This document shows positions 9,839-59,679 of a stretch of 64,000 nucleotides of DNA, in pieces; position 1 is the stretch's first letter, and each line of letters begins with the position of its first letter. The position numbers and the translations under genes are program-made. Below the pieces are notes generated by a model, which was not told where the DNA came from, ran no database searches, and was given only the letters and a program-made list of their open reading frames with translations. Source of the stretch: Emiliania huxleyi CCMP1516 (taxonomy: Eukaryota); assembly GCF_000372725.1 (NCBI RefSeq), contig NW_005201154.1:271904-335903 (forward strand), written 5' to 3'.

Positions 9839-12800
9839 ATGAGCGCTCATCTCTCTGGCATCGTAGAGCTACTGTCCGCTGACGCTCCGGCGCCATTCGG
9901 GTCCACATCCCCAGTCCTCGGGACAACGGACGGCCGACGCTCTCCCGTCCTCTCTGAGCGCTCCTCAGATCTCGGCGGCGGCTCCTCCAAGCCGGGCTCG
10001 CCACGGCCGCCGCCGCTCAAAGCGCTGGCGCAGCCGCTGCTTGAGCGAGCAGAGGAGGGCCATATCGGGCCGGCGCCCGCCACCACATCCGCAGACGGCG
10101 GAGGCGGCGAGGAGGAGTCTCGCTCAGTCGCGGTGACAAAGGCGCTCATCTACGGGTGCATCAACGCGGTGGTCTGCGCGCCGGTGATGATCTCGTTCGC
10201 GTCCATCATCTTTCGCCACCCCACCTTCCACCGAGACGCCGCCACCTACGCCCGGCTCGTCAAGCTGGTCCTCTTTTCGTCGGCGGTGCATCAGACCGTC
10301 TTTGTGACGACCTCGTCGCTCGTCTTTGCCGTCGGGCAGGTGCAGGACGCGGGCCTCATCTTCCTCTCCTCGATGGCCAACCAGGTCGTCGAGGCGCTCG
10401 AGAAGCGCCAGGCGAGAGTAGCGGAGACGAGACGAGCCGAGGTTAGCCGAGACGACCCGAGGTTAGCCGAGAGGAGCCGAGAGGAGCCGAGAGGAGCCGA
10501 GAGGAGCCGAGAGGAGCCGAGAGGAGCCGAGAGGAGCCGAGATGGGGTGATCGCCACCGCTGTCACAGAGGCGCTCTTCACAGCACCGCCGCGCCACAGG
10601 CTCCGTACGACGAGGTGATCGCCACCGCCCTCGTCGCGCTCGCCTCCTCCACCACCCTGCTCGGCCTCGCCCTCGTGCTGACCGGCAAGCTCCGCCTCGC
10701 CGGGCTGGTGCAGTACCTCCCCCTTCCGGTGGTGGGAGGCTACCTCGCCTACATCGGCCTCTACTGCTTCGAGGCAGGCCTCTCCCTCATGTCTGGCACG
10801 GAGGTCACCTCGGTGGCGCAGATGGTGTCGCTGGCTGGCGGCGCCGGCATCTTGCCCTGCTTGCCCGGCGTTGCCTGCGGCGTCGGCATCATCCTCGCCC
10901 TCCAGCGGTGGCACCACTTCCTCGTCCTCCCCTCCCTCCTCCTCGCCATCCCCGTCCTCTTCTACGCCGCCGCCTTCGCCGCCGGGCTCGACTTGCCTGC
11001 TCTCCGCGCCGCCGGCTACCTGTCCGAGGCGGAGCAGCCGGCGTCGTGCCTCGAGACCTGGTCCTCCTTCCGCCCCTCCCTGGTGCACTGGGACGTGCTG
11101 CCCTCGCTGCTGCCCACGTGGCTCGCAATGTACACGGTCGTCGCCTTCTCGTCCTCTCTCGACGTGGCGGCAATCCAGATGGACATGGGCAAGCAGCTCG
11201 ACTTCAACCACGAGCTCATCACGGTTGGCCTCTCCAACGCTGCCTCGGGCCTCTGCGGAGGCTTCACCGGCTCGTACATCTTCTCGACCACGATCTTCAC
11301 CTACCGAACCGGCACCCGCCTCCGCCTCTGTGGCGCCGTGGTGATCGCCGCCGAGCTACTCCTCTTTGCGTCGCCGGTCACCGTGGGTGCGTACGTGCCG
11401 AAGCTCTTCTTTGGCGCCGTCCTCACCTTCATCGCCGCGGACCTCCTCGTCGACTGGCTCTGGGCCGCGCGCCACAAGGTGCACCCGACCGAGTATGCAA
11501 TCATCCTCCTCACCTTCGGCGCCATCAACTGCTTCGGCCTCGAGGTTGGCATGTGCGGCGGCGTGCTCATCGCCATGTGCCACTTCATCATCGACTACGC
11601 CTCCGCCCCCGTCGTCCGACGGATCGACGTGCGTTCGACTGTGCTGCGCTCCTTTGCGCACTCGCGCGCCCTCGCCGGCGAGCAGACCCGACTCATCTCT
11701 CTCCGCTGCCGCGGGTACATCTTCTTCGGCTCGACTCTCCGCATCATGGAGGACGTCCTCTCCGCCGTCTCCGTGCCGCCGCACCTCGAGCCCACCCTCG
11801 GCAGACCCCCCTCCAAGCAGCGCCCCTCGGCTCAGCCTGCGCCGCCCACCCGCTTCGTCCTCTTCGACTTCGCCGCCGTCACCGGCCTCGACGCGACCGC
11901 CGCCCGCGCGTGCTTCCTCAACCTCACGCGCACCCTCGCGCCGCTCGGGATCGAGGTTGTGTTCGGCGGCCTCCCGGCCGGCGGTCGGATCGCCAAACTC
12001 CTCACCGGGCACGGGATCCTCACTGACTCGCCTTCGCTCGCCTCGGCGCGCCGCGTCTCCGCTGCGGACGAGATCGACCCGAGATCGACACGAGATCGGC
12101 CCGAGATCGACACGAGATCGGCCCGAGATCCACCCCGAGATTGGCCGACGGCTAGGCGCGCCGCTTTTCCGCCGTCGACGAGGCGCTCGAGTACTGCGAG
12201 GAGAAGCTGCTCGAGGAGGTGTCGGGCCGCAGAGCAGCCCCTCTCCTCGGCCACTGGTGCTCTGATCCTCCCGGAGCCTGCTTGCCCTTCCTTAGGCGAC
12301 GCGCAAGCAGCCCATCGGCACGCGCGAGTTCGACTCGTCCCCCTTCGTCGCGCGCGCCGCCACACAGTCCGCGCCCGACTTGGCGCACCTGGCCGCCCTC
12401 GCCGGCGAGCCTGGCGGGGGGGGAGGGGGGGTGGTGGGCGGCGGCAGCGGGGGCAGCTGGCTGGCGAGGTCTGTCCAGCGCGTGCTGGCGCCGCCCGTCG
12501 ACTCGCACGACGCCGGCGCGCTGTGAGCGGCGCCTCTTCATGGCGGGCTGGCTGTGAACAGGCGCCGCTCGTCGACTCGTACCACGCCGGCATGCTGGAC
12601 GGGCTCGCGCCGTACTTTGAGGAGGAGAGCCGCGGGCAGAGGGCCGGTGCAGGACACGTCCAAGACGTGTCCGAGACGTGTCTGCGACACGTCCCGTAGG
12701 AGAGCCACGGGCCGGGCCGGCGAATCTTTGCGGCGGGCGAGGAGGCGGGCGCGCTCTACTTCATCGCCGAGGGGCAGGCGGGGCCGAGCGAGGAGGAGGC

Positions 12801-21866: not shown

Positions 21867-24359
21867 GTGTCCTCTCGAGCGCTGGACTGGTGGACTAGAG
21901 CCCGTCTAGATACGTCTCGCCGCCTTCTAGATAATCCTTCTAGAGCGCCTCGCCCCTCCTCGGAGGCCGGCTGTGGCGAGATCTGGGGAGATCCGGGGAG
22001 ATCTGGGGAGATATGCCCCTCCTCGGAGGCCGACCCGCACAGCGAGCTGCCGCCTCCCCAGCCGCCCCCTCGCGCCCCTCGCGCCCCTCCTCCTCCCCGC
22101 CCCCCTCCTCCCCCTCCTCCTCCTCCTCCCCCTCCTCCGCCGCCGCCGCCGCCGCCGCCGCCGCAGCGCCGCGCGCGCTTCTCCGGGCCACGGAAGAGGG
22201 GGCGCCCGAGATTGCCCGAGATTGCCCGAGATTCGGCGAGGTTGGGGAGGGAGGAGCTGCGCGCAGCGAGAGGCGCACGGCCGCCCCTGCGCGGGGGAAG
22301 AGGTATGGGGGAGATTGGGGAGGCATGGGGAGGGACGGGGAGAGATGGGAGAGATATTGGGGGAGGGAGGTATGATCTGTGGGGGAGGTATGGGGGAGGT
22401 ATGATCTGGGGGAGGTCGCACGTGCGCACCTACGCGCGGGGGAGAGTGATCTGGGGAGAGTGATCTGGGGAGTGTGATCGGGGGAGAGTGATCTGGGGAG
22501 AGTGATCGGGGGAGTGTGCGCCCCCCCCCGGCGGCACGCTGAGAACCGCGGCTGCACCTTCGGGTGGATCTCGGCTGCACCTCGGCGCACCTCGGCTAGA
22601 CCTCGGCTGCATCTCGGCTAGATCTCGGCTGCATCTCGGCTAGATCTCGGCTAGACCCTCGCCGTCCCAGATCAGTGCGACCACAACCCGCGCCGTCTCG
22701 ACGCAACGCCCCGCCGCCGCGCCGCCGCCGCCCTCTGCGCGCGCCTCCCCCTCCTCCTCCGGCCGCCCCCTCGCACCGGCCCTCGCCTTGCGCCGCTGCA
22801 GCCGATGGAAGCGGTTGCGCACGGAGTGCTCCGACCGCCCGCGCAGCTGGCTCGCGACCGCCGCCCACCTGGCGAAGAAGGTATATGGTTCCGGGGAGAG
22901 ATGTGGGGGAGATATGGGTGGAGACATGGGGAGATATGGGTGGAGACATGGGGAGATATGGGTGGAGACATGGGGAGATATGGGTGGAGACATTGGGAGA
23001 TAGGGGGGGAGGAGCAGCCCACCTGGTGGAGAAGGGACTGTGTGAGGGGCAGCGACGGGCTACTACCTACTTCCATTCTACGATGGGCAGGAACAAGCGA
23101 TGCAGAGTGACTGAGAGGGCTGCACGCCCACCTGGTGAAGAAGGAAAGGGCGCACTGCACTCGACGGCAACTCACTCGGGGCTCGCAGACTCGCGACCGC
23201 CGCCCAGCCTGATCACTCGTCCCTCCGCCGGTCAACTCACCCGTCGGCTGCTGAGGCAGGGGAGCGCGCTCTGACTCGCGGCCGGCCGCCCGCCTGAGGA
23301 GGACGAGTGCATCACGATCAGATAGATGCGTTGCCTTGACCGCGTCTCGTCGAGGCTCACTCTCGCCGCCCGCCCGCACACACCTGCTCTCGCGGTCTCC
23401 TGCCGCCGCCGGGCCTGCGGCGCCGCTCGCGCGGGCGAGCTCCTGTTCACAGCTGGAGGTGTGAAGAGACGCTGCGCACAGCTCGCCTACTCCGAAGTCG
23501 GCGAGCTCCAGCAAAGCGGCATCCTCCTCCGCGGACCTTGGGCGTGGGGGACGAGGTCAGATCTGGGGACAGATCTGGGGACAGGTGGCTGACTAGGGGC
23601 CACCTTCCTGGTGGGCAGGGCTCCAGTGATGTGGTAGTGCTGCAGCGGTAGATGAGTGGAGAAGCAGTGCTGCAGCGGTAGATGAGTGTGAAGTGGTGCA
23701 GCGGCGGTAGATGAGTGTGAAGTGCTGCAGCAGCGGTAGATGAGTGGAGAAGTAGAACTTGAACAAATCTCCTCCGCGGACCAAAACGAAGCCTGGTGCC
23801 GCACGGGCGCCTCGGCATCCTCGCCGGCCGCCTCCTCGGTCTGATGAGCTGCTGCCGCCTTGGCCGCCTTGGCCGCCGCCTCGGCCGCCGCCGCGGTCTC
23901 GGCCTTCGCCGCCGCCGCCGCGTCCTCCGCACTTGCCGCCGTGTCCGCCGCCACCTCTTTTGCGGCTCGCGCCACATTCGCTGCCAGCGCCGCCGCCGCG
24001 TCGGCCGCCGCCGCCGAGGGCGCCGCGGCAGCGGCAGCTGCTGCCTTAGCGGCTGCTTTCGCACACTCGTCTGCAAAAGCTCGCTGGCAGAAGGTGCTAT
24101 CCGGCGGCTCGTACCGCCACGGAACCGTCGGGCAGAGGGCTCGCCCGAACGCTCCCGCACTCTCCGGCGCCGGCGCGAGGCTGCTCTCTCGGAACACGGC
24201 CTCCGATTCGCCACGGTGCTTGCGCCACGCCTCTGGAACGGATTTGGCGATATGCCCGTCCGGGCCGTGGAAAACATTGTACGCTCGAGTCAGGCCCTGT
24301 CGTTGCCGCAGCTCGAAGCTCCAACCCGGCGGAAGGCTCGACAGGGTGTGGGCGCTCAT
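21867..24359 (-). CDS. MBD-like + Myb/SANT domain protein (N-terminal part, multi-exon, 3' boundary uncertain)
   Basis: LPPGWSFELRQRQG...YNVFHGPDGHIAKSVPEA (MBD-like). Myb repeat split by introns: WSAEEDAALLELA...WAAVASQLRGRSEHSVRNRFHRL. Confidence 0.7.
23630..23752. repeat. Intronic minisatellite, ~28 bp unit x4
   Basis: Variants of gtgctgcagcggtagatgagtg..gaag. Confidence 0.85.
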
Positions 24360-31653: not shown

Positions 31654-33079
31654 TCACTGCCCCGGCGCCCACTCCTCGACCTTCTTGGGCACCAACTGGT
31701 TCGACAGGTCCTCCCCATGGCCTAGGCAGCCGTGGGCGCCCTGACCCCACGAAAGGACGGCGCCGCTGGCGGTGACGGCGAGGCTGTGCATGGCCTCAGC
31801 CGAGACAGCGACGACGCACTGACCAGCGAAGGCCTCGATCTTCTTGGGCAGCGGTTGCTCCTGCGCGTCGCCGTGGCCCAGCTTGCCATAGGCTCCATTG
31901 CCCCAGCTCAGGACGGTGCCGTCGGCGGTGAGGGCGAGGTTGTGGCCGGCTCCAGCAGACACAGCGATGACGCGCCGCCCAGCCAAGGCCTCGACCTTCT
32001 TCGGCAGCAGCTGGTTCTGCCCGTCGCCGTGGCCCAACCGGCCGTCGCCTCCCAAGCCCCAGCTCCAGACGGCGCCGTCGGCGGCGACGGCGAGGCTGTG
32101 GAATCCTCCAGCCAACACGGCGACGACGCGCTGCCCCCCCAACGCCTCGACCTTCTTCGGCAGCAGCTGGGACTGCCCGTCGCCGTGGCCCAGCCGGCCA
32201 AAGTATCCATCGCCCCAACTCCAGACGCTGCCGTCGGCGGCGAGGGCGAGGCTGTGGTACGCTCCAGCCGACACAGCGACGACACGCTGCCCGGCGAAGG
32301 CCTCAACCTTCTTTGGCAGCAGCTGGTCCTGCGCGTCGCCGTGGCCCAATCGGCCATCACCTCCATAGCCCCAGCTCCAGACGGCGCCGCTGCTGGTGAG
32401 GGCGAGGCTGTGGTGGAGTCCAGCCGACACAGCGACGACGCGCCGGCCCGCCAAGGCCTCCATCTTCTTCGGCTGCAGCTGGATCCCCCCGTCGCCGTGG
32501 CCCAACTGTCCCCCACCTCCACCGCCCCAGCTCCAGACGGCGCCGTCGGCGGTGATTGCGAGGTTGTGGCAGTCTCCAGCCGACACGCTCACGGCACGCT
32601 CGTCGCCCAGCGTAGAGGAGAGGCGGGTCGGTGTGTTGAGCCCCGTCACGCCCTCGCCGTGGCCGAGTAGCCCTGGGCTGAACCACGGCGCAGAGCCGCA
32701 CGACGAGAGCCGCCCCTCGCCGTCAATGAAGACGCTGTGCTGTCGGCCGCTGCCCTCGCCGGCAGGTTGGACTCGCGCAGCAGCGCAGAATAGCACAGCC
32801 ACCGCACGGCGCAGCTCTCGTCCTCTGGCTGCGCTGGCAGCTCGAAGCCGCGCTCTTGCGCCCACAAGCGGATGCCCTGCTCCGCGCGAGCGAGTGAAAG
32901 AGCAGCGAGACGGCCGCGGCGCGAGCGATGTCGACGGGGCTGTCGCAGCGAGAGAGGGCGCGCTCGAGGAGCTCCCTGGGGAGGTCGAGGAGGCGGGCGG
33001 GCGGCGGCGCGTCTGGCGAGGGAGCGGCGGCGGCGGCGGAGGCGAGGGTGCGCGAGCGGCGGCGCGGCGGGGTGGACAT
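31654..33079 (-). pseudogene. F-box + RCC1-repeat gene with two frameshifts
   Basis: Homology to the 37979 paralog is spread over all three frames (ORFs 32723..33118, 32646..33203, 31654..32865). About 7 HSLA..ADGAVWSWG...GQLGHGD repeats. Confidence 0.8.
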
Positions 33080-33110
33080 CGCGAAGAAAAGAATTTTCAA
33101 GCCTCTCTCG

Positions 33111-33146
33111 CACGACACTGGGCACGGGACTGGCGCGCACTGGCAC
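33111..33146 (+). repeat. Conserved ~35 bp dispersed motif
   Basis: cacgacactgggcacgggactggcgcgcactggcac. Copies at 33450-33478, reverse-complement at 19346-19365, 27015-27044 and 59934-59972, degenerate at about 24540-24578. Confidence 0.85.
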
Positions 33147-33749
33147 TAACACAGGTACACCACGGGAGCCGCCTAAACGACTCCTGCGAGGACGGCGAGG
33201 CACTTAGCTCCGTGCACTCGACCGCCCCCGCCACAGGCAAGCTCATTCACAATCTGCTCTGCGATTGCCGTGTGAAGAACGACTGAGATACGCTGCTTCT
33301 GCAGCCCCAGCCAGCGCTTGGTGGCCAAGTCACCTCATCGAGGTGCTGGGCCCGCGTCAGCTTGTTCTGCAGCACGTTCGCCGCCATCCAGAGGATCTCG
33401 CCAACCAACCCCCTTCCCGAACCCACCGAAAAACAATTCAGCAATTTCTCGCACGACGCTAGGCACGGGACTGGCGCGAGGAAAAGTAAATTACGCGCTA
33501 GGCTAGACATCGTATGGCGGATAAAAAACGCGTACGCGCGAGAAATGGGTATCAGGCGGTACGTCGCTGGCTTTGCGGGGCTGCAAATAGAAATTTATAA
33601 TAGACACCCGCTCGGTGCAGCCCCTGCCAAGAATCCAGCCCGGCAGCCCGAGGCGAGAGATATGCTGGCCGAGAGCCGAACGCCGATGTACAATCTCGCG
33701 CTCTCTCTGCGCGAGCGTGAGCTCTTCGGTGCAACCTTGATCAACCGGC

Positions 33750-36330
33750 TTACCGGCGGCCGGTGTGGAAGAAGTGAAGCACCAGGGCGAAGCAGGCTTG
33801 GAAGAAGAGGCCAAAGCCAATGAGGGCGCCGAGGTCGCGACCGACGTCCACCTTGTCGAAGGAGTAGAACTTGAGCAGCTCGTGCCCGGAGGCAAAGGGC
33901 GCGCTGTCGTCGAACTCCTTGATCGGCTCGAACTCGTTGTACATGAAGACGCGGTACGAGTACGAGTGGAAGCCGATGTGGTACACCCAAATGAACCAGG
34001 GCGGGATGTCGTCCTTGACCTAGCAGGAGTCGATAGCAACCCCAGTTCCAAAGATCGCCCCCCCCCACACACACACACGCCCGAGCGACTAGCACAAGCG
34101 ACGTGACCTTGAAGGCGCCCTCGCACAGCATGAAGAAGCCATAGACGCCCGCGCCGAGAGCGATGCCGATGATGTAATGCGGCACCAGCGCGCCTATGTG
34201 TGTTGGTGCCGAGGTAACAGGCAGCACCGCCCGGCGTCAACAGAGCAGGCAAACAGAAGCCGCGCGCCAACGAGGCACATGAACCCCTCGGCGGCGACGA
34301 GCGAGCAGAAGAGCGCGGCGAAGAAGGTGCCGAAGCCGTTCAAGCCGGCCAGCGGCACCACGCACGCCGTCGACAGGATCGAGATGAGGGCGAGGCCGGG
34401 CAGCGAGCAGAGGAAGTTGGCCGAGACCCAAGAGACGACGCCGTAGGCGCCGTTGGATCGCTCGCGAAGGAACGAGGAGCGCTCCATCATGAAGAAGGGG
34501 AGGACGGCGACCGACATGAAGACGAGAAAGGCGGCGATGTAGAAGAGCATCGAGGTGCGCGAGTTGATGGACGAGTAGTCGTACTCGTCGCCTAATCTCG
34601 GGGTCGTCTCGGGTCGTCTCGAGTCATCTCGAGTTGAGACGGCGCGCAGTCGTGCTCGTCGCCGAGGCCGATGTACATCAGGCCGATCATCAAGCAGAGC
34701 ATGACGTACATGACGAGCCGCACCCAGTAGATGCCTATTGCACGAAATCAGTACGAGTGAACGGAAAGTCGATGAGTGACGACGAGTCGCGCCCGGCAGT
34801 GCCCGGATTCTTGGCGTTGTTGAGGCTGAAGCGGTGGCAGAGCGTCAAGAAGGAGCTGAGCGGGGACACCTGTTAGCACTCACTTGACGAGTCATGACCG
34901 CTAATGACGCCACGAAGGAGCTGAGCGAGGGCACCTTCGAGCTGCCGGCCGGCGCCTTCTTGCTGCCTGCCATCGCCTCGGCGACCTATTCACAGCTTGA
35001 GGTGTGAAGAGGCGCTGTTCACAGTCTTGCTGCTTGCCATCGCCTCGGCGACCTTCGCGACGACCGTGGCGCGCTCTGCGCTGTCGCCGTACTTGAGCAC
35101 GAGCGCCGCGTCGTAGCGCTCGGGGAAGTCCGAGTTGACCTGTTCACAGCTCGAGGTGTGAAGAGACGCTCTTCACAGTCTGAAGTTCACGGGGAAGTCC
35201 GAGTTGACCAGCTGGAGCATGAAGTCGGCCGGGTTGTACATCGGCGGACACGCGTGGCCGTGAGCGGCAAGGTAGGAGGGGATCTCGGCGGCCTTGCCGT
35301 AGAAGACGGTGTGGCCGCCTGCGGGAAGGTTCCGAGAAGGCTCCCCGCGAGTCTCCGTGTGAAGATGCCTTGCCACAGAGCGTGGCCGCCTAATCACACA
35401 ATTCAAGCCGCTCCGTCATTGATTGGCGGTCTCTCCTCGCCGCCGAAGGGCGGTGTGGCCGCCCGAGAGCAGCAGGACGTTGTCAAAGAGGGCCCAGAGC
35501 TCGCTGCTCGGCTGGTGGATGGTGAGCGCAATGGCGTGCCCGGCGCGCGCCATCGCCTTGAGCCGCTGCATCACGCCAAAGGCGGAGGCCGAGTCGAGGC
35601 CTGACGTGGGCTCGTCGAGGAGGAGGATGGCGGGCCGCTTGACCAGCTCCACCGCCAGCGAGAGGCGGCGCCTGTGGGACGTCTCGGAAGTGTCGTGGAC
35701 GTGTCCTGGACATGACCAGCTCCACCAGCGAGCCACGGCGCCGCTGCCCCCCGCTCAGTCCCTTGCGGAAGATGTCGCCGACGATGGTGTCGCGGCACGA
35801 CTCGAGGCCGACGAGCCTCAGCGTCTCCTCCTCGAGTGCGCGCGTCTCCTCGGCGCTGGCGCCGTAGCCTGCGCAATGGGGGTGGTGGTGAGCTCTGGAT
35901 GAGCGTGGCGACAGGGACGCGGCATTTGAGCTGGGAGCGCGCCGTGGTAGAAGCGGACGGCGAATCGCAGCGACTCTGCAACGGTGAATACGCCGAGGAG
36001 CGAGTCCTCTTGACCAACGTAAGAGAGCACGCGGCTGCGCTGTGCGAACGAGACTTGCGTGTGGCCGTTGAAGGAGACGGTGCCGCTGAGCTTGTGCGAT
36101 CTGGTCCGGCCAGACACCGCATCGAGCAGAGTAGTCTTGCCACAACCCGAGGGTCCCATCACGGCGAGCATGTCGCCCGAGCTGAGCATGCCGTCTGTCG
36201 GCTGGAGCACGGTCTTGCCCTTTACCGTCACGCTGAGGCTGGACCACTCGACGCTGGTGGCACTCGCGATCGTGCTGCTGGTGCGTTCGAGCGGGCGAAC
36301 GCCGGCCTCGGGGTCCATTTCCATCGCCAT
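33750..36330 (-). CDS. ABCG (White-family) half transporter, many introns
   Basis: Walker [18 protein letters not shown], signature LSGGQRRR, Walker [28 protein letters not shown]2 membrane domain with [14 protein letters not shown]. Confidence 0.93.
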
Positions 36331-36607
36331 GAGCCGTCCTGCACCTTGGGGTTGGTCAGGAGAGAGACGCCGCCCTACCTTGTCTTTGGTCAGCAGAGAG
36401 TCGCTGCGAAAGCAAGCAGATGTCACGGCGCTGCGTTTCTTTTTTGATGTGGTTTGGGTTCTCCTCCTCTGGTCGCTTCCGAGGATTCTTGCCACCGGGT
36501 TGGGCTACAAAGAGCCGCCGCGAAAGCAAGCAGATGTGTCCAGACGCGTTTCTTTTTATGCGCGTTGCATAACACGTGCCTCCAACCTGTTCGTACTCTT
36601 AGGTCCA

Positions 36608-36662
36608 TAAATAAATAAATAAAACGGGCACGCCAAACGAGGGTGGGAGAAGGACAGGGTCC
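36608..36662 (-). mobile_element. Non-LTR retrotransposon 3' end (same subfamily as 4739-4797)
   Basis: Reverse complement reads ggaccctgtccttctcccaccc..gtttgg.gtg.ccgttt(tatt)n. 5' boundary and TSD not identified. Confidence 0.7.
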
Positions 36663-36727
36663 CCACCTGCACGAGCAGGATCTTGTAAGGACGATCAGGG
36701 ACACAGGGGAACAAAACAAATCTCTCT

Positions 36728-36779
36728 CTTGAGCACTTGAGCACTGGATAGGGCCGATTCCGCGTGGTACGGGACCCCT
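36728..36779 (+). repeat. 52 bp dispersed repeat, copy at 54729-54780
   Basis: Three mismatches by hand count. Confidence 0.9.
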
Positions 36780-37249
36780 CGATCGTCTCGCCCTCCCTCA
36801 CTGGTGTGTTCATTGGGGGGGGTCATAACAAACACGGTACAGGATCGAGGTGCACGCCGCCGAAGCAGTGTCGTCCCCCCTCTCCCCGACGGCGATGGCG
36901 GTGTGACCGATCGAGCTACAAGAGGAGCTTGTTCAGCAGGATCCGGGGTAGTCAGATGCACTACCTCACTGGGCCTGAGATCATCGTACGACGCCTCCCA
37001 TCACCGTCTCGGGTTTGTGTGGAGTCGAACCACTCCGGGGTGGGCAGGCCCACCAATTTTCGTTTCGTATCTTCCCTGCACCTGCAGGAGAGGGCGAGAG
37101 AGGGATGAGTGGAGCTGGGACGGAGGGGAGAGGAGGAAAGGAGGGGGGGGGGGGCTCAGCCGTGCAAAAAGCATCAATTAACAATAGTAAGGAAGACATA
37201 TTGCCCGGCCGTTCATGAAGTCCGTCTCGATTTTGGTTTTTTCCCCACA

Positions 37250-37380
37250 GACCACTCGGGCAACTTTTACGAGAGGCAAAGCTTTACTTGACCACTCGAC
37301 CACTCGGGCAACTTTTACGAAAGGCAAAGTTTTACTTGACCACTCGGGCAGATTCGATTGCATTTTACCACTCGGGCAAA
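37250..37380 (+). repeat. Iterated ACCACTCGGGCA motif array
   Basis: Motif at 37251, 37299, 37339 and 37367. The first two spacers are nearly identical. Confidence 0.85.
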
Positions 37381-37978
37381 CTCGATGAAACGGACGGAAA
37401 AGCGCGTTTGCGACGGCTCGCCGGAGAGCATGCATGGAGCGGCCGGTGCGCCGCCGCAGCGCACCGATGGAGCCTGCGTCGCGGTTCAATCCACTGACGC
37501 CGCAGCACCGCGACACATTCTCCAAGCACGGCCTCTGGCATTGTGATTGCACAGAGAGCGAGCAATAGGCGCCAAAAGCACAGATCTGTGTGCAGTGGCT
37601 CTCCATGTCGGTCGCGCCCAGCGAGAGGACAACCACGGGCCTCGGATGCTCGCCCGGACGCGAGCCCACCGTGCGAGTTGCGGACCCGGAGGCGGCCGGC
37701 CCAGCTCACCCCCAGAGAGGCATGCCCAGGGTCAGGCAAAAAAGGGGGGGTGTTTTCCGTCCGTCCAATCTAGCTCATCTCTCTCTCACAGGGGAACGGG
37801 AGCGGGTGGGAGCGCATCGCGACACGGAGGGGGGCTGGGCAGGGTTCACCCACACGACAGGGTCCCAGGGATTCCCCTCTCGTATAGGACAGGTTGCACC
37901 CGGCCACGGGGGCAGGCGCGGGCCTCCTACTGGGTAGGTCCTCAGCAATGTAGGGGCAGGCGTTTTTCTTTTCTCGCG

Positions 37979-39388
37979 ATGTCCACCCCGCCGCGCCGCC
38001 GCTCGCGCCGCCTCGCCTCCGCCGCCACCGCCGCTCCCTCGCCACGCACGCCGCCGCCCGCCCGCCTCCTCGACCTCCCCAGGGAGCTCCTCGAGCGCGC
38101 CCTCTCTCGCTGCGACCCCGCCGACATCGCTCGCGCCGCGGCCGTCTCGCTCCTCTTTCACTCGCTCGCGGAGCAGGGCATCCGCTTGTGGGCGCAAGAG
38201 CGCGGCTTCGAGCTGCCGGCGCAGCCAGAGAGTGAGAGCTGCGCTGTGCGGTGGCTGTGCTATTCGGCGCTGCTGTGCGAGTCCAACCCGCCTGCGAGGG
38301 CGGCAGCAGGAAAGCAGCACAGCGTCTTCATTGACGGCGAGGGGCGGCTCTCATTGTGCGGCAGTGAGGCAGGCTTTCCAGGGCTACTCGGTCACGGCGA
38401 GGGCGTGACGCGGCTCAACAAGCCGACCCGCCTCCCATCGCTGGGTGAGCGTGTCGTGAGCGTGTCGGCTGGTGTCGGCCATAGCCTCGCCCTGACCGCC
38501 GACGGCGCTGTCTGGAGCTGGGGCCATGGAGCCTGGGGCCAGCTGGGCCACGGTGACGCGCAGGAGCAGTGGCAGCCCAAGAAGCTCGAGGCCTTTGCTG
38601 GACAGCGCGTCGTCGCTTTGTCGGCTGGAGTTGGCCACAGCCTCGCCATCACCGCCGACGGGGCTGTCTGGAGCTGGGGCGTTGGAGACTTTGGCAACTT
38701 GGGCCACGGCGACGAGCAGCGGCAGCTGCTGCCAACGAAGGTCGAGTTCTTGGCGGGGCGGTCCGTCGTTGCCGTGTCTGCTGGATCCCGCCACAGCCTC
38801 GCCCTCACCGCCGACGGCGCCGTCTGGAGCTGGGGCTGGGGATGGGAAGGCAAGCTGGGCCACGGCGACGAGCAGGACCAGCTGCTGCCCAAGAAGGTCG
38901 AGGCCTTGACTGACCAGCGCGTCATCACCGTGGCGGCTGGAGGGGCTCACAGCCTCGCCATCACTGCCGACGGCAGCGTCTGGAGCTGGGGCAGTGGAGC
39001 CTTCGGCCAGTTGGGCCACGGCGACCGGTAGAGCCAGCCGCTGCCCGAGAAGGTCGAGGCCTTGGCTGGCCAGCGCGTCGTCGCTGTGTCGGCTGGAATT
39101 GCCCACAGCCTCGCCATCACCGCCGACGAGGCCGTCTGGAGCTGGGGCGGTGGAGGCTTAGGCAAGCTGGGCCACGGCGACACGCAGTACCAGCCGCTGC
39201 CCAAGAAGGTCGAGGGCTTTCCTGGCCATCACATCGTCGCTGTCTCGGCGGGAGTCTACCACAGCCTCGCCCTCACCGCCGACGGCGCTGTCTGGAGCTG
39301 GGGCGGTGGAGCCTCCGGCAGTCTGGGCCACGGCGAGGACCTGTCGAACCAGCTGCTGCCCAAGAAGGTCGAGGAGCAGGGAGGGTGA
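37979..39388 (+). pseudogene. F-box + RCC1-repeat gene with one in-frame TAG (39029-39031)
   Basis: RLLDLPRELLERALSRCD (F-box-like) followed by RCC1 repeats. ORFs 37547..39031 and 39062..39388 share a frame. Confidence 0.82.
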
Positions 39389-40022
39389 GCGCGAAGGCCC
39401 AAGGTATGAGTTCTGACGTGTTATGAGTCGTCTCGGTCCTTTTGATCAACAAAACACGGTCGGGAGAATAGGGAGAGGGGTGTTGTGTTCTCTAAGCCCC
39501 TAAAAAGGCCCTATAGACGCGTGGCCGTGGGCGTGTGAGCTGTTGAGGCTTTGAGCGAGCTCGGAAGCGAGCATAAGTATTACTCTAGCTGGAGCTTTGC
39601 ATATGTCGATTGAGCCATCTCGAGGATGGGGCGCGCGGGTTCACCCCCTGTAGACCACCCAGCTGGTCGTGACTTCCCACGAATAGCCAGCTCCACGGCC
39701 AATGTTTACCGCCATATCGAGAGCAAGGCCGGGCCTACTTGATATGAGATCAGCAAACTTATGTTTTGCAGCGAAGGAAGGAGAACGACATAGGCAGAGC
39801 GACAGGGAGAGAGAAGAGAGAGAGAACGTACGTACAGGAACGCCTGGGATTGGAGGATCCGCAGCGGATCCCAATCGATCGCAACGAGTTTCTGCCTTGC
39901 GGCTGCGACGTGCGTGCTTGCGTCCCAGAGTGCCCTCGCGCAGAACCAACGCATCTCCCACAACGCATCAGCACGTGCTCGAGTCCCTACGAATATCGAG
40001 TCGGTCGCCCATTTGCCGCGGC

Positions 40023-41266: not shown

Positions 41267-41460
41267 ACGAAAGGTGCGAGACGGATTGGAGCCCATTCCT
41301 CTGGAGCGTGCAGTGGGTGGGAGACCGCCACTTCAAGAGGCTTCCGCTGGGACCACGTTGCTCGTTGGCCGATCCGTGTGTTTTCAGCCTGGGGCTGGGC
41401 CTTGCGCGTCTCGAGAGAAGAAACACGAAAGTCGAAGACGTCGGCGAGCAGGAGAGCAGA

Positions 41461-41594
41461 TCCCCCATCGGGAGGACGACCCCGGCTAGTCGCCGACCAC
41501 ACCCACAAAGAACCCTGCACAAAGATCGCAAGGGCGGGGACCTGTTCCTTTTTACCCATCTCCTAGTAGAGGTGTCCGTTTTATTTATTTATTT
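41461..41594 (+). mobile_element. 5'-truncated LINE copy, 11 bp TSD
   Basis: Same 3' end as the 29803 and 54858 copies; aggagagcaga at 41450-41460 and 41595-41605. Confidence 0.88.
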
Positions 41595-41791
41595 AGGAGA
41601 GCAGAGCATGCCGGCCGCGAGGCGCGAGCGCCGCGCCGGCTTCATTCTCACCTCAAGAATATTTGCACTTTATGCTTCATTTTTATGCAAGCACCCATGA
41701 TTTAAGTTGAGAAAAAAAAGAACGCGCGCTGGCCGCTGCGGCCTGCGCGGGCACCAGCGACGGCAGCTGCCGCCGGACGGTACGCGCTCTC

Positions 41792-44700
41792 TCAGCACAC
41801 CCACCAGCGGCCGCCGCCCGACGGCGCCTCCTCCGGCGGCATGGCCGCCGAACAGACCACCGCGCGCTGCCCCGTCGCCCCTCCGCCGCTGGCGCTGCGG
41901 CCCACACGCACGCGCGCGGGCACAGCCCGCATGTCGGCCGCCCTGCCGCGCACGCCCCCAGACGGCGAGCCGGCGTCGACGGTCACCGGCGGCGTGGAGA
42001 GGAGGTGTGCGTGGTCCGCCCAGACGTGGAGCCCCGCCCCGAGCCCGTACCGAGAGCCGTCGGCGTCCCAGACCTAGCGAAGCCACAGCCGGGAGCCAGC
42101 CGAGAGTCAGCCCCGTGGCAGAGCAGCGTGCCTTCTCGAGCGCTCGTTGAGAGACAGGGGGGGGAGATGGCTGTTGTGCATCGTGTTTTGCATCGCGATG
42201 CAGCATCTGCGCTCTCGCGTACCACGTCGAGCGCGAAGCCCTTGACACGAGCGCCCGTGACGGCCCAGTGGCGCAGCGTCGTGAGCGGACGCACCTCGAA
42301 TGAATTCGTAGAGGCTTATGGTTGGTGACTCCACTCGCCCCCCCCCCCCCGTGGCTGCCCGGTGGCGCGACGTCGTGGGCGGAGGCACCTCGACGAACTC
42401 GGCCCCTGCGCGGAGGCCCGCGACGCCTCCGAGCACGAGGTCGGTGAAGGAGGAGTGGAAGTAGTGGTCGCCTGCTCACCAGTCGACCAGCCGGGAGTCA
42501 CTAGCCAGAGCGGTCGGCCAAGGAGGAGTGGAAGTGGCGGTCGCCACGCTCGGGTCATCTCGGGCCATCTCGGCTCATCTCGGCTCATCTCGGCTCATCT
42601 CGGAAGTAGCGGTCGCCACGCTTCGCGAGCCAGTCGCGCCCGTTGGAGGCTCCAAGCCCGCCCGCGCCCGCCCAAGGCCGCACGCCGTGCAGCTTGCGCC
42701 TCGTGATCCAGTAGCCGTCGTCGGGAGATATGCGGAGATATGGGGAGATGTGCAGCTTGCGCCTCGTGATCCAGTAGCCGTCGTCGGGAGATATGGGGAG
42801 ATATGGGGAGATGTGCAGCTTGCGCCTCGTGATCCAGTAGCCGCCGTCGGGAGATAGGGGGAGATATGGGGAGATATGGGGAGATATGCAGCTTGCGCCT
42901 CGTGATTCAGTAGCCGCCGTCGGGAGATAGGGGGAGATATGGGGAGATATGGGGAGATATGCAGCTTGCGCCTCGTGATTCAGTAGCCGCCGTCGGGAGA
43001 TAGGGGGAGATATGGGGAGATATGGGGAGATATGCAGCTTGCGCCTCGTGATCCAGTAGCCGTCCTCGGGGTGCAAGTCCTCGTCCACGTGCGGAGGCGC
43101 CCTCCCCTCGGCACGCGCGCGGGTGTGCGCGCGTGCGTAGGTCAGCATCAGCGCCTCCCATGCGGCGATGCCGGCGTGGGGCTGCGGCGGGTGAGTCTGC
43201 AGCAGCTCCGCGAGCGCGGTGGCGGCCTTGGACACCTCAAACGGCCACACGGGGCCGTTCCAGTTGCACTGTGCGGCGTTGGAGAAGTTGTAGCATTGCG
43301 AGCGCCGCTCGGTCGTCCTCGGACCCCACGGGGAGGCGAAGCCCTTCGCGTCGTGCAGCTGCGCCCTGAGGAGGAGGAAGAATCACACGGTCAACCAGCT
43401 AGCGATGGAGGAGGCCCTTCGGGTCCTGCAGCTGCGACCAGGCGGTGGCGAACTTGCGCGACCGGCCGGCTGGGGCGGCGGGGACCGCGCCGAAGTACCA
43501 CGGCGAAGTGAGTGCCGACAGCTCGCGGACCGGGACCAGCTTGCCGACCTGGGGTAGTCGTGAATGGTGTGAGTCGACAAGGGGCCTCCGGCTCGCGGGC
43601 AGGGGACAGAGCTTTGCCGACCGGCCACCCTCGCTCCGGCGGGCAGGCGCGTCCCCGCGGGCAGGCGAGGCAGCCTATTCACAGCTCTTCTGCTCACACC
43701 TCTCCTGTTCACAGCTCCTCGCGGGCAGGCGAGGCAGCCGAAGTAGGTCTGCACGGACTGGCTGTTGCCCTTGGTCGGCGAGTCTTTCCTGCCGCCACGG
43801 CCAAGTGCGTGAACGGCGTCTCTTCACAGCCGCTGCCCCCTCGGCCGGCGACCCCTTCCTGCGGTACCACGTGATCTCGGCGTGCAGCGATTTGGGCGGC
43901 GGCTGCGCGAGGGTGGTGAAGAAGGAGAGGTCCTATTCCGATTCCATTCTCGTTATGATTCGGGCGGGGCGGTTGCGCGAGGGTGTTTGACAAGGGGAGG
44001 TCCTCCGACCATAGCCGCTCCAGCACCACCCCCCTCCACCTCGCGGCCTCCTCCTCAAACTGCGCCGACAGCGTTGCGTTGCCCGCGGCGGCGGCGGCGG
44101 CGGCGATGGCCGTCGCTTCGGCGAACATGACAGCGTTGATGGTGGGGCGACAACCTACCATTACGCCTCATTTCTCGGTCGCGTCTGGCTCCATCGCTAC
44201 TGACCGCGTCGACGGTGGGGGCGGCACGCCGTCGAGCGTCGCCGAGTTCTCTTGCCCGTCGGCGTGGCAGCTCTGGAACATGCAGCGCGCGCCTGGGGGG
44301 GTGGGGTGGGGGGGGGTGGGGGGGGGGGGGGCAGGCTCGGCCAGCCTCGGGCTCGGGCGATCTCGCAGGTCTGGAGTGTGCGGCGCGCGCCCGTGTGGTA
44401 GTGGGTGCGCACCCAGTCGCGGTAGTTTGCCTCGAGTGCGGGCAGCAGCTCGTGCGCTAGCGAGCCGGCCGCCCCTGAGTCACGGTGGCGAGCTCATCAC
44501 GCTTGATTGCGTCTTTTTCTTTTTTTCTAGCCTCGAGCCGGGCGGACCAGGCCGCGCATCGACGAGCAGCGAGTGCCTCCACACCGAGTGGGCGGGCCTA
44601 GAGGGGCGGAGGCCGAACACTCTGTGGTTTCGTCAGTCGTCACGAGCGACTTACCTGCAGGGGTGAGCCAGCCAAAAGGTGTACTGCTTCCTCCAGCCGG

Positions 44701-45386
44701 CGCCGCGCAGCCAGAAGCGCGCGTAGTCGCCCGCGTACCTGGGAACAGCGTCTATTCACACCGCCTGGCTGTGAACAGGCCCTCTCCGCGCGTAGTCGCC
44801 CGCGTACCTAACAATATATTATTCTTCATAAAGAGCTGCGCGTATTGATTAATGATTCGCGCAGTCGCCCGCGCACCGGCCGTCCTTGACCCAGCGAGCC
44901 TCCGCAAAGTGGTGTCCAGCCGGGCAGACGATGGTGTTGGCGGGCCCGCTCCACGGAACCTGTGAACCAGGCAGCGAGTCGAAGAGGAGTCTCACGTTCC
45001 TTCTTGCGGAGCTTTCCTGGCGGCGTCTCGGAATCGTCTCGGAAGTGTCTCGGAAGTGTCTCGGAAGTCACGACACCTTCTTGAGGAACTCGGTGATGAC
45101 GTGGCAGCCCTTTGGGTCGCAGCCGGGTGTGCGCTGGCTCTTCGGCGCGCGAGCGAGGTGTAGGTGGAAGACGCGCCTGTCGACGGCGCGTCACAGAGTG
45201 AAGGTGGGGCGCAACCGAGAGATGACGTGCGAGGTGGAGGCGGCGCCAGCGGTACCAGTAGGCGGTGTTGAGGTCCTCGTCAGAGCTGTGGAAATAGGGG
45301 ACGTGCTGCTCCACCCACGCCCGCGACTCGTTTAGGACAAAAGCGAAGGGCGCAGTCTCGATTTGCGGAGGTCGCAGGCGCGGCGA

Positions 45387-45422
<36 letters not shown>

Positions 45423-56709: not shown

Positions 56710-59679
56710 TCAGCCTATGCGGATGTCAGACGGCCCGGCGGGCGGCAAGAGCTGCTCGAGCCCAGCTGCGAGCTCCGCGTCGAGGGTGGGCGGGAAGTCG
56801 ACCTGCGGGCCGCGAGGGCGAGGGGGCGGTCGAGGGCCCGGGCGGCTAGTTGGTCCAGTGGCGTGGGAGGAGGTTCGGCAACGGCTCGGGGGGGGGGCAG
56901 CGTGGAGGAGGGCTTGGAGGCAGATGGGAGGAGGCAGAGGAGGCAGATGGGAGGAGGGAGAGGAGGCAGATGGGAGGAGGGAGGGGGGAGAAGGGGGGGG
57001 GGGGGGGGGGCCGGGAACCCCCCCCGAAGGGGAAAACCAAATCTCCCAAATCCGAAAAAAACCCCGGGTTGGGGACCCCCCCCCCCTTGAACCTGAAGCT
57101 CTGCCTGTTCCCCACTAAAGGGGTGAGGGGGGGCTTTTTACGGCCTCCGGGCCCAAAAAAACCCCCTTTTCCCCGGGTTGGTCACCCCCCTCCTCTTGGT
57201 GGGGACCTGTTCCCCCCTAAAGGGGTGAAAAAAACCTTTTTACAGCCTCTGGACCCCCCTCCTTTTGGGGGGGACCCTGGGGCCCTCCAGGTGCGTGAAA
57301 GAGGTTTTTAAACCGAAAAACGCCTATTTTTGGGGCCTTTTGGGGCCTTTCGGGGCCTTTTGGGGCCTCTCGAGGTCTCCAAACCCAAAAACCCCCCCCG
57401 GAGGGGGATCCCCCTCTTCTTTGAAAGCGTTTCTCGGCTGCGCTTGAAGAACTTGTGCGCCACCTGGAGGGGAGGGGGAGAGCCGGAGATGCGACAAGAG
57501 GGCGCGACTGCGCGCAGGAACGAGCACGGCGCACCGCCACACCCTCGGCCACATCTGGGCCACATCTGGGCCACATCTAGGCTGTATCTGGGCTGTATCT
57601 GGGCTGTATCTGGGCTGTATCTGGGCTGTATCTGGGCCACATCTCGGCAGTCTCTCCCCATCGGCTTCAGCTTGAAGACGACGTCGCCCGGTATCTGCCC
57701 ATCTCTCCCCATCTCTCCCCATATCTCCCCATCTCTCCCCACCGGCTTCAGCTTGAAGACGACGTCGCCCGGTATCTCCCCATATCTCCCCATATCTCCC
57801 CATATCTCCCCACCGGCTTCAGCTTGAAGACGACGTCGCCCGGTATCTGGCCGGGCTTCTGCTCGGACTCGTACTTGAAGGTGATCTGCTCCGAGTCGGG
57901 CATCCCCTTCTCTATCGTCGCCTGGCAAGTGGCGGGAGAGAATGGCACGGAGGTGAGCGGGCATGGTCCGGCACCCCCCCCCCCCCCCCCACCCCCTTTT
58001 TTTTCTCGTCCGCCTTGAGCGACTTCTCCTCGCGCTTGCACTTCTCCTTCGACTCCACCATCACCTGCGCAGGACGTGTCGCGGACGTGTCGCGGGCGTG
58101 TCGCGGGCGTGTCGCGGACGTGTCCACTCGGCGATCGCCTCCTGCTGCACGACCATGCCCGGCCATCTCTCGGCCGCATCTCGATCTCTCGGCCTTCTCT
58201 CGGCTCTCTCTCGGCTCTACTCGACCCTCACCTCCTGCTGCACTATCATGCCCGGCCCCGCACGCCGGTGGACCATCTTCTTCTCCTTTGGACAGGCGCC
58301 GCACCCTTGGCAGCGCGGCACGTTCGGCTTCTTTTTGCAGTTTCGGCAGACGATCCGCCGCTTGATGGTGGCTGACTTTTCGTTGCCCATGTACCTGCCG
58401 CCCGGGGGGGGGGGGGGGGGGGCGGGGGGGGCAACAACCTCAAAACGTCCCTCACGGCAGGACTACTTTTGGGCTTGGGCAAAGGAGGGGGTGAGGGGGC
58501 AGCAATATGCGAGCGGCAGGCCACCGCGGGCCTCAGCCTAGCTGCAGAGGGCCGCTCCCCTTTCTCGGGCGCCCTCTCGGCCGCCTCTCTCGGCCGCATC
58601 TCTCGGCTCCCTCTCGGGTCCCTCTCGGGTCCCTCTCGGCTCCCTCTCGGGCGCATCTCTCGGGTCCCTCTCGGGTCCCTCTCGGCTCCCTCTCGGCTCC
58701 CTCTCGGCCGCATCTCTCGGCTCCCTCTCGGCTCCCTCTCGGCTCCCTCTCGGCTCCCTCTCGGCTCCCTCTCGGCTCCCTCTCGCGCACAAGTCCTCCA
58801 GCGTCACCGGCAAGTCAATCTCGGTGTTTCGGCCACGGTTCGACTGCTCCCTCCCGCCGCCGCCCCCGAAGAACATGTCGAAGGGCGAGCCGCCCCCCTC
58901 CTGCTCCTGCGCCCCCTTGCGCGCGGCGCCGATGCCGCCAAAGTCGTACAGCACGCGCCTCTCCTTGTCAGCCAAGATCTCATACGCCTCGGTCACCTGC
59001 GGCAAGGCCGACCGGACCGTGGCTCAGAGAGGCTCAGAGGCTCAGTGCAGAGAATCTCGGTCACCGGCGGGAGCGCGGCGCCGCGGGTCGAGGAGCGCCG
59101 CGGGGGGGCGCAGGTGCGGTGAGACTGGCGGCGGCGGCAGCGGCGATGGCGGCAGCGGTGGCAGCGGCGGCGGCGGCGGCAGCGGCGGCGGCAGCGGCGG
59201 CAGCGGCGGCAGCTGGCAGCGGGTGGGCAGGCATCGCCAGAGAGGTGTGCGATGCGCGGCGGCGGGGCGGCTGACAGGGTGGTAGCGGCGCGCGGCGGCG
59301 CCGCCGCTGGCGGCCACGCTATCGGGAGCGGCGGTGCGGCCCACACCTCGCGGAAGCGGCCCAGTGTCGAGCCGTCGGGATTCTTGTCCGGGTGGAGCTG
59401 GACAGAGAGCTTGCGGTAGGCGCTCTTGATCTCGCGGTCGGTCGCCTCGGGCTGGATGCCCAGCCGCTCGTACAGGTCCACCTCCTCCTCCTCCTCTTCC
59501 TGCGGGAGCTCCTCGTACCCGCCTCGGCCGCCGCCGCCGTGGTGGCCGCCGCCACCGCCGCCGCCAAATGCGCCACCCATCAGGTCCTCGAGATTGATGC
59601 CACCCTGCTGGAACTGGAAGAACTGCGCGCTCGCGCCGCCGCACAGCGCGAGCAGCAGCAGCAGCGCAGGCCCGGACAT
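56710..59679 (-). CDS. ER-type Hsp40 (ERdj3/DNAJB11-like), multi-exon; 56985-57420 is poor-quality sequence
   Basis: Signal peptide; J-domain with HPDKNP; PFDMFFGGG; VTLEDL|YMG; CRNC/CQGC; IEKGM; PGDVVFKL; final exon VDFPPTL. Confidence 0.88.

What the first reader, a model, noticed from the sequence alone, without database searches (positions are those of the whole stretch)
34958..35208. Introner-like ~39 bp cassette shared by introns of unrelated genes
Seen: two adjacent ABCG introns (34986-35052, 35140-35208) end, in gene orientation, with ctgtgaacagcgcctcttcacacctcaagctgtgaatag and ctgtgaagagcgtctcttcacacctcgagctgtgaacag (35/39 identical). The cassette also ends introns in the Myb gene (23443-23481, 35/39 to the second), SulP (12521-12561) and the glycosidase (44739-44778; 43675-43714 shares only the ends). 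In each case it follows a 9-30 nt duplication of the next exon's start. Known: introner elements in Micromonas and Aureococcus create introns by co-opting one splice site from a TSD, but those TSDs are short and of fixed length. Inference: this is a small mobile cassette that supplies the acceptor, while a long, variable TSD supplies the donor, giving precise intron gain. I cannot check whether this family is already described.
Basis: partly seen in the sequence, partly recalled or inferred. Interest (0 to 1): 0.9.

Follow-up and report, generated by a model that had tools for sequence, protein, structure and literature searches.

The report
Algal introns made by long-duplication insertions
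In the alga Emiliania huxleyi, a 39-base cassette ends introns in many unrelated genes, usually behind a 14-39-base copy of the next exon's start, so these introns likely arose by recent copy-and-paste insertion at staggered DNA nicks, with target duplications far longer than those reported for known intron-making transposons.

Summary
Confirmed, and larger than the finding. The window is Emiliania (Gephyrocapsa) huxleyi DNA. Both ABCG units (69 and 67 nt) are removed precisely: two contig-encoded proteins read straight across both junctions. In metagenome contigs, 122 of 127 cassettes are followed by G, and 92 of 127 lie behind a copy of the downstream sequence (mean 26.5 nt, range 14-39; whole unit 68 ± 4 nt). 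The right junction is exact. The left one has microhomology, truncations or foreign filler. Some copies are antisense, including the glycosidase copy. The duplication is not specific to this cassette: 20 of 27 introns checked in three window genes start with one, carrying other fillers (10-mer, 11-mer, AT-rich). Best explanation: target-primed copying into staggered nicks, filtered by the spliceosome (0.5); host repair from a DNA template is the main rival. The cassette is very likely already listed in supplementary tables of introner surveys, as 37-nt families with no long duplication called. I found no description of the long variable duplication. No empty allele and no mobilising enzyme were found.

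The parts
33750..36330 (-). ABCG half-transporter gene, 10 introns, 596 aa
   Evidence: Spliced model is 595/596 identical to E. huxleyi EMIHUDRAFT_363297
35140..35208 (-). 69-nt GT-AG intron = 19-nt duplicate (35190-35208) + 11-nt filler (35179-35189) + cassette
   Evidence: spanned in one block by P0141 and P0145
35140..35178 (-). 39-nt cassette: 10-nt motif, inverted copy, motif again; ends in the acceptor CAG
35121..35139 (-). exon copy of the 19-nt duplication
34986..35052 (-). 67-nt GT-AG intron = 28-nt duplicate (35025-35052, 27/28) + cassette
34986..35024 (-). 39-nt cassette ending in the acceptor TAG
34958..34985 (-). exon copy of the 28-nt duplication
35319..35462 (-). 144-nt intron: two duplication-plus-filler units with different, non-cassette fillers at the same exon start
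34870..34934 (-). 65-nt intron with 21-nt duplicate and a non-cassette filler
34735..34802 (-). 68-nt GC-AG intron with a decayed duplicate
34592..34662 (-). 71-nt GC-AG intron, duplicate plus 10-mer-repeat filler
35672..35741 (-). 70-nt GC-AG intron, duplicate plus 11-mer-repeat filler
12488..12561 (+).
23443..23508 (-). 66-nt unit: 9-nt duplicate with GA start + filler + cassette (23443-23481); gene and splicing not verified
44739..44807 (-). 69-nt unit in a glycoside hydrolase: 21-nt perfect duplicate + 8-nt filler + cassette in reverse (cassette reads + at 44739-44778); follows an AT-rich unit at the same site (44808-44876)
43675..43738 (-). 64-nt intron: 23-nt duplicate + variant with three direct motif copies
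43789..43859 (-). glycosidase intron (limits approximate) holding an antisense, partial cassette head
10547..10614 (+). 68-nt unit with 14-nt duplicate and an antisense partial cassette head; splicing not verified
57105..57245 (-). two degraded cassette-like copies (25-27 of 39) in homopolymer-rich, probably low-quality sequence

Best explanation
The cassette is a dispersed ~39-40-nt non-coding element that is likely copied into exons by DNA synthesis primed at one of two staggered nicks about 14-39 nt apart, so that fill-in would duplicate the start of the next exon and the duplicate plus cassette is spliced out as a precise new intron. Shown: an exact right junction (cassette AG, then G of the exon), a variable left junction (1-9 nt microhomology, truncation or 1-18 foreign bases), a variable duplication, a unit length of 68 ± 4 nt and precise removal in ABCG. 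Inferred: synthesis starts at the cassette's AG end from a diffusible, probably RNA, copy of an existing intron's 3' part, acting in trans. A non-LTR-type endonuclease/reverse transcriptase or a repair polymerase with RT activity would do this. The spliceosome then keeps the events that begin G|GT, G|GC or G|GA and total about 60-75 nt. The same process likely carries other fillers, so the cassette is one passenger family.
For: 122 of 127 cassettes are followed by G, and 92 of 127 have an upstream duplicate above the 99th percentile of shuffled pairs. The 3' copy starts directly at the cassette end in 71 of 92; left-junction overlap is 3 nt or more in 13 of 33 direct joins against 2.3% by chance. 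Left-truncated cassettes pair with longer duplicates. Duplicate 26.5 ± 5.4 nt, insert 41.9 ± 5.8, total 68.4 ± 3.6 in 65 clean cases. Fillers are neither decayed duplicate (0.35 vs 0.37 null) nor locally templated (5.9 vs 5.5), n = 14. Neighbouring cassettes are no more alike than random ones (median difference 8 vs 6), so templates act mostly in trans. Strand calls: 112 sense and 25 antisense of 149 informative. Cassette-type introns sit at different positions in different repeat units of one LRR gene, and other units are empty. In the left arm 51 A-to-G changes keep sense-strand G·U pairing, against 2 G-to-A (weak, since copies are related).
Against: No partner element: no shared sequence upstream of the cassette beyond same-locus copies and other filler families among 104 flanks, and no poly(A) tail. 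Antisense copies carry extra bases beyond the cassette's AG (8 nt at window 44739; 14 nt in L003), which an excised intron cannot supply. L041 holds a partial inverted copy of the cassette 28 nt away, with the same rare spacer and 8 nt of its filler, which suggests local DNA templating. Exact right end, G start and sense bias are also expected from selection for splicing, and my search pattern required an intact right end. 35 of 127 sites had no detectable anchored duplicate. The negative slope between duplicate and insert is partly built in by how filler is defined. No empty allele was seen.
Confidence: 0.5

Rival explanations
1. Host repair of staggered double-strand breaks copies short patches from genomic DNA (polymerase-theta-like templated insertion), from either strand, locally or in trans. 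Only events that happen to splice survive in exons, and abundant, hairpin-forming patches such as this cassette get copied again and again.
For: Local inverted copy in L041; antisense copies with bases beyond the AG; microhomology; several unrelated fillers with short iterative repeats in both orientations; whole duplicate-plus-cassette units found in other contexts (L022, L099, L113). Daphnia neointrons are explained this way (PMC4202315, passages).
Against: Neutral non-coding insertions should be common, yet only 5 of 127 strict and 6 of 164 relaxed copies are followed by a base other than G, and sites score as more coding-like than background (median 3.2 vs 0.4). One antisense copy (L121) has both ends exact though its right end is not the acceptor. 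Daphnia repeats are 4-12 bp, and sources were found for few inserts.
Confidence: 0.27
2. The spliceosome joins an intron's 3' end to the G of a proto-splice site in another transcript (first step of reverse splicing). A cDNA of this chimera recombines through the downstream exon and joins upstream by microhomology about 27 nt further on, which yields the duplicate.
For: Targets look like splice donors (-1 G in 59 of 71 against 29% background); exact AG|G joint; genic, sense bias; different fillers stacked at the same exon start (window 35319-35462 and 44739-44876; L002).
Against: True antisense copies with both splice sites taken from the duplicate (L003, L063, L121), and 10-mer and 11-mer fillers in both orientations.
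Confidence: 0.1
3. A 39-bp MITE with imperfect 11-nt terminal inverted repeats is moved by a cut-and-paste (DDE) transposase.
For: Ends pair as an imperfect inverted repeat at 9 of 11 positions; both orientations occur; the left end lies within 1 nt of the duplicate, or overlaps it, in 49 of 92.
Against: Duplication length ranges over 14-39 nt and is not fixed; left-truncated copies and fillers occur; the first base is G rather than C in 25 of 93, which breaks the terminal pair; fillers without inverted ends share the same architecture.
Confidence: 0.07
4. These are old introns into which the cassette inserted later, or assembly artefacts of a repeat.
For: No empty allele was found; most loci come from two contig sets; chimeric assembly could explain the L099 and L113 units.
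Against: The duplicate starts at the donor itself; 19 of 79 duplicates are perfect and 65 of 79 are at least 90% identical; positions differ between LRR units; one DNA contig spans both ABCG copies; 212 repeat pairs against 1 in shuffled DNA.
Confidence: 0.03

Closest known systems
E. huxleyi introner families in Gozashti et al. 2022 (PMC9860276, Supplementary Tables 5-6) and 2025 (PMC12130899, Dataset S2)
   Same: Same species. Three 2022 families have mean length 37 nt and GC 54.0, 55.4 and 57.2% (138, 30 and 308 copies). The cassette from its internal GT to the AG is 37 nt in 94 of 101 copies, GC 55.4%. The 2025 fam4 (45 copies) spans 113-150, and fam24 (5 copies, about 70 nt) is noted '10bp terminal direct repeats', co-opt 5', carry 3'. 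Very likely the same element; inferred from length and GC, not from sequence.
   Different: Listed only in supplementary rows (no 'Emiliania' in either main text). TSD called '?', 'N', 2 or 4 nt, and fam4 classed as LTR. Here the two ABCG units are removed as 67-69 nt from the duplicate's donor and the duplication is 14-39 nt. Their pipeline needs similarity near both intron ends, so it would miss the true units.
Introner elements of Aureococcus, Micromonas, Symbiodinium and Polarella (MITE-like)
   Same: One splice site carried, the other taken from the target duplication; GT/GC/GA donors; some classes work in both orientations.
   Different: TSDs are 3-9 bp and characteristic of each class. 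Here they are 14-39 nt, variable, with a ragged left junction, and shared by unrelated fillers.
Daphnia pulex neointrons from staggered double-strand-break repair (Li et al. 2014, PMC4202315)
   Same: A direct repeat of the adjacent exon end at the opposite intron end; parallel gains at one site.
   Different: Repeats are 4-12 bp and a source was found for few inserts. Here repeats average 26.5 nt and the insert is a large dispersed family.
Non-LTR retrotransposons and SINEs (target-primed reverse transcription; features recalled)
   Same: Variable TSD, exact 3' end, 5' truncation with microhomology.
   Different: 39 nt, no poly(A), no RNA-gene-derived head (Rfam negative), no partner found, and antisense copies with 3' extra bases.
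Fungal introner-like elements (proposed reverse splicing)
   Same: Bias to genes; family of similar introns.
   Different: Those lack TSDs and are alike end to end. Here the first ~28 nt are site-specific.

Membership tests
Introner (broad: dispersed family that creates introns) | Similar sequence in introns of unrelated genes | tested here: met
   127 strict sites; 164 relaxed hits
Introner (broad: dispersed family that creates introns) | Precise removal by splicing | tested here: met
   P0141 and P0145 span both ABCG junctions; RNA contig arithmetic 395 vs 396 nt; no read-level junction table
Introner (broad: dispersed family that creates introns) | Similarity reaches both intron ends (Gozashti operational rule) | tested here: not met
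   The first 14-39 nt are a site-specific duplicate
Introner (broad: dispersed family that creates introns) | Empty orthologous site in a relative or allele | tested here: inconclusive
   Present in runs X1 and X3; no empty allele among overlapping loci; empty paralogous repeat units in L079
MITE / DDE DNA transposon introner | Terminal inverted repeats | tested here: inconclusive
   9 of 11 positions pair; first base varies in 26 of 93
MITE / DDE DNA transposon introner | Short TSD of fixed length | tested here: not met
   14-39 nt, sd 5.4
MITE / DDE DNA transposon introner | Both ends exact | tested here: not met
   Left end truncated or extended in many copies
Non-LTR retrotransposon / SINE (TPRT) | Variable TSD with exact 3' end | tested here: met
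   (71 of 92 exact; partly selected by splicing and by the search pattern)
Non-LTR retrotransposon / SINE (TPRT) | 5' truncation and microhomology | tested here: met
   13 of 33 with 3 nt or more vs 2.3% null
Non-LTR retrotransposon / SINE (TPRT) | Poly(A) or simple-repeat 3' tail; tRNA/7SL/5S-derived head | tested here: not met
   Exon G follows the AG directly; no significant Rfam match
Non-LTR retrotransposon / SINE (TPRT) | Autonomous partner sharing the 3' end | not testable with these tools
   No whole genome held; no shared upstream sequence in 104 flanks
DSB-repair neointron (Daphnia type) | Direct repeat of the exon end at the far intron end | tested here: met
   much longer than 4-12 bp
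DSB-repair neointron (Daphnia type) | Insert unique to the site, or templated locally | tested here: not met
   Dispersed family in trans; one local case (L041)
Reverse-splicing introner (fungal ILE) | No TSD, whole-intron identity, sense only | tested here: not met

The most novel reading that the evidence does not exclude
Most E. huxleyi introns are self-propagating intron 3' ends. A dedicated transcription- or spliceosome-coupled machine copies ~40-nt acceptor modules (this cassette, 10-mer, 11-mer and AT-rich families) into exons with ~27-nt duplications. This would be a class of intron-making element distinct from DDE, LTR, helitron and reverse-splicing introners. It would account for the species' GC and GA donors, its narrow 60-75-nt intron peak and its intronic short tandem repeats.
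Probability: 0.3. Interest if true: 0.92.

Novelty: new variant of a known kind. Interest (0 to 1): 0.78.

Why it matters
How new introns arise is a long-standing open question, and most catalogued cases are DNA transposons with 3-9-bp target duplications. Here a cultured alga with many sequenced strains shows young introns (likely thousands), each with a built-in clock (duplicate identity), a readable junction signature and apparently one process behind most of its introns. Insertion mechanism, splicing-length filter and precise loss by recombination between the duplicates become testable from existing genomes. Pipelines that demand end-to-end intron similarity would miss or mis-parse this architecture, so it may exist in other lineages. 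Gene models that use the internal 37-nt GT-AG are probably wrong.

Tried and rejected
No whole genome was available, so no genome-wide count was made. Cassette patterns gave 0 hits in viral contigs and 0 in prokaryote genomes. Rfam over 33000-46000 gave one chance hit, E 0.56. Single-copy folds were not better than shuffles (z -1.6 to +0.2). My first anchored scan had a faulty control, because offsets inside a duplication also match; one search replaced it. Branch point as the left boundary: rejected, A at -15 in only 46 of 127. Filler as decayed duplicate or local template: rejected. Cassette as part of a long 29-nt tandem array: only one extension into a further unit (L094) plus a few 2-5-nt matches. 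Nucleosome-linker link: no CG excess in the duplicate (4.0 vs 3.7-4.9 per 30 nt) and no paper found. Empty sites among overlapping loci: none; only unit copy-number differences such as L009/L111. The short-window codon test gave 51 of 71 sense; the wider one is better, but several 'antisense' calls look like misclassification. Summed contig depth suggests thousands of copies but is not a copy number. Earlier findings of this scan: none. A read-level junction table for the two focal introns and presence/absence in further strains were not obtained. Read et al. 2013 was not held, so its statements on GC donors and 10-11-bp repeats are recalled only.

Full report
Organism and gene. The first ABCG exon is 100% identical over 129 aa to Emiliania huxleyi EMIHUDRAFT_363297. 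A ten-intron model of window 33750-36330 (-) gives 596 aa, 595 identical, without stops. No whole genome was held.

Observation. The two cassettes are where stated and are 35/39 identical; with the 23443 copy they stand far above the window background. Each follows a copy of the next exon's start: 19/19 nt plus 11 nt filler, and 27/28 nt with no filler. The cassette is a 10-nt near-palindromic motif, an inverted copy and the motif again, so the reverse strand also ends in CAG.

Splicing. P0141 (418 aa on a 1487-nt contig) matches model residues 179-596 in one block at 417/418. P0145 matches 172-347 while reading into introns 2 and 7, as a partly spliced transcript would. Both cross the two junctions, so the full 69 and 67 nt are removed. 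That these contigs are transcript-derived is my inference from the missing introns. In RNA run X11 one contig has 396 nt left beyond position 34583 where the spliced exons predict 395, and a variant at 35248 lies 59 nt from a piece end, which is the end of the 19-nt duplicate. The joints table was cut and did not list these two junctions. In the glycosidase, homologues of about 70% identity align only if 44739-44876 is removed; the gene is on the - strand, so that cassette is antisense and its reversed end is the acceptor.

The family. A strict pattern found 125 stretches in a quarter of the metagenome collection (about 510 estimated); 124 loci were on file, mostly from two contig sets. One locus tested matches an E. 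huxleyi protein almost exactly apart from an annotation gap; the others are assigned by GC content and shared repeats only. Of 140 distinct sites, 13 were dropped for short flanks. Of 127, 122 are followed by G (GC 67, GT 47, GA 7, GG 1) and 92 have an upstream duplicate above the 99th percentile of shuffled pairs; units are 59-79 nt. The other 35 had no detectable anchored duplicate. Tandem members are included in these counts. In 65 clean cases the duplicate is 26.5 ± 5.4 nt (14-39), the insert 41.9 ± 5.8 and the total 68.4 ± 3.6. Of 79 duplicates, 19 are perfect and 65 at least 90% identical, so many events are young; -1 is G in 59 of 71 against 29% in coding DNA, and the donor's second base is C in 40, T in 21, A in 8 of 71. 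Summed contig depth over the ABCG cassettes is several hundred times single-copy in two runs that behave as DNA, which suggests thousands of copies but is not a count.

Junctions. The downstream copy starts exactly at the cassette end in 71 of 92 cases; on the left, 13 of 33 direct joins overlap by 3 nt or more, against 2.3% by chance. Left-truncated cassettes occur with longer duplicates. Fillers of 7-17 nt are neither decayed duplicate nor local copies (n = 14). A codon-based strand call (15/16, 16/16 and 17/20 right on known genes) gave 112 sense and 25 antisense of 149 informative sites out of 164; some antisense calls look wrong on inspection. The clear antisense cases take the acceptor from the reversed end or from an AG inside the duplicate (L003, L063, L121, window 44739). 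Neighbouring copies are not more alike than random ones, apart from a local inverted copy in L041. In an LRR gene (L079) cassette-type introns sit at different positions in different repeat units while other units are empty; this is the best evidence for independent gains, since no empty allele was found.

The wider pattern. The duplication is not the cassette's property. Loci plus window hold 212 direct-repeat pairs of period 40-120 against 1 in shuffled DNA, peaking at 66-73 nt. Of 158 pairs of 58-82 nt, 93 have an AG|G boundary (19-48 for control dinucleotides), and 35 of 79 single-strand calls carry other fillers: 10-mer repeats, 11-mer repeats, AT-rich or unclassified. In three window genes 20 of 27 hand-delimited introns start with a copy of the next exon (a few limits were off by 1-2 nt). 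Different fillers stack at one exon start (35319-35462, 44739-44876), and whole units are tandemly repeated or appear in other contexts.

Mechanism. The anatomy fits synthesis primed at one of two staggered nicks, starting at the cassette's AG end and closed by microhomology, followed by a splicing filter on donor and length. I put 0.5 on a diffusible, probably RNA, template, 0.27 on host repair from DNA, 0.1 on partial reverse splicing and 0.07 on a MITE. The enzyme is unidentified. Exact right ends, G starts and sense bias are partly products of selection and of my pattern. What selection alone explains poorly is the scarcity of non-G copies (6 of 164).

Literature. Gozashti 2022 (PMC9860276: passages and supplement rows; preprint passages) lists 653 E. 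huxleyi introners, including families of mean length 37 nt and GC 54-57% with TSD '?' or 'N'. The cassette from its internal GT is 37 nt in 94 of 101 copies with GC 55.4%, so they are very likely the same element read with other boundaries. Gozashti 2025 (PMC12130899: passages, part 3 of the text, supplement rows; file 13 not searched; no sequences in the rows seen) lists three families of 5-45 copies with TSD 2-4 nt or none. Roy 2020 (passages) gives class-specific TSDs of 3-8 nt; Li 2014 (passages) gives 4-12-bp repeats; Rogers and Bendich 2025 (passages) report loose 4-30-bp repeats near 213 introns with no mention of Emiliania; Mikina 2024 was read in part 1 of 5 only; von Dassow 2009, the E. 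huxleyi small-RNA paper and the Pelagomonas paper (passages) add nothing on this. Searches found no description of long variable duplications in Emiliania introns; subscription papers, preprint supplements and the authors' consensus files were not seen. Read et al. 2013 and Huff et al. 2016 are recalled only.

Verdict. A real, young, intron-creating family, probably catalogued but mis-parsed, within a genome-wide long-duplication pattern that I could not find described. New variant of a known kind; interest 0.78.

Noticed in passing
window 42700-43043 (-): One duplicate-plus-10-mer-filler unit is repeated about five times (63-73-nt period) inside the glycosidase; long flanking duplicates seem to let whole introns expand in tandem.
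   Followed up: partly
table 5c; L022:500-730(-), L099:300-400(-), L113:250-400: Whole units (another gene's duplicate plus cassette) occur as arrays, some at about 40-100 times single-copy depth, and in unrelated contexts, including an inverted three-copy array about 350 nt from its apparent source in L022. This could be circle-derived amplification, gene conversion or misassembly.
   Followed up: partly
L057:563-760, L080, L089; window 43675-43714: Fillers built from 10-, 13-, 15- or 16-nt pieces of the cassette repeated head to tail, which suggests iterative copying of the motif.
   Followed up: no
window 12625-12699, 23443-23508, 43933-44002, 53405-53475: Units with a GA start; 8 of 71 metagenome donors are GA as well. 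GA-AG splicing was not verified here.
   Followed up: no
ABCG introns 35672-35741, 35319-35462, 34735-34802: Proteins P0002, P0004 and P0145 read into these GC-donor introns, which suggests frequent intron retention.
   Followed up: partly
window 31654-33096, 38000-39400, 51220-52170; L009, L073, L076: A family of recent paralogues with RCC1-like 52-aa repeats (label recalled) and a shared N-terminal part, with long uninterrupted frames.
   Followed up: no
window 56950-57420: Homopolymer-rich stretch that looks like low-quality sequence, holding two degraded cassette copies; N gaps at 374-484 and 20743-21663.
   Followed up: no
L002:525-662, L044:1314-1451, L064:40-178: A shared ~140-nt intronic repeat (83-87% identical) of another family, ending near repeats of a short pyrimidine-rich motif.
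   Followed up: no
L061:173-805: The annotated E. huxleyi protein P0138 lacks 37 in-frame residues that read as a normal part of the PX domain, probably a false intron call.
   Followed up: no
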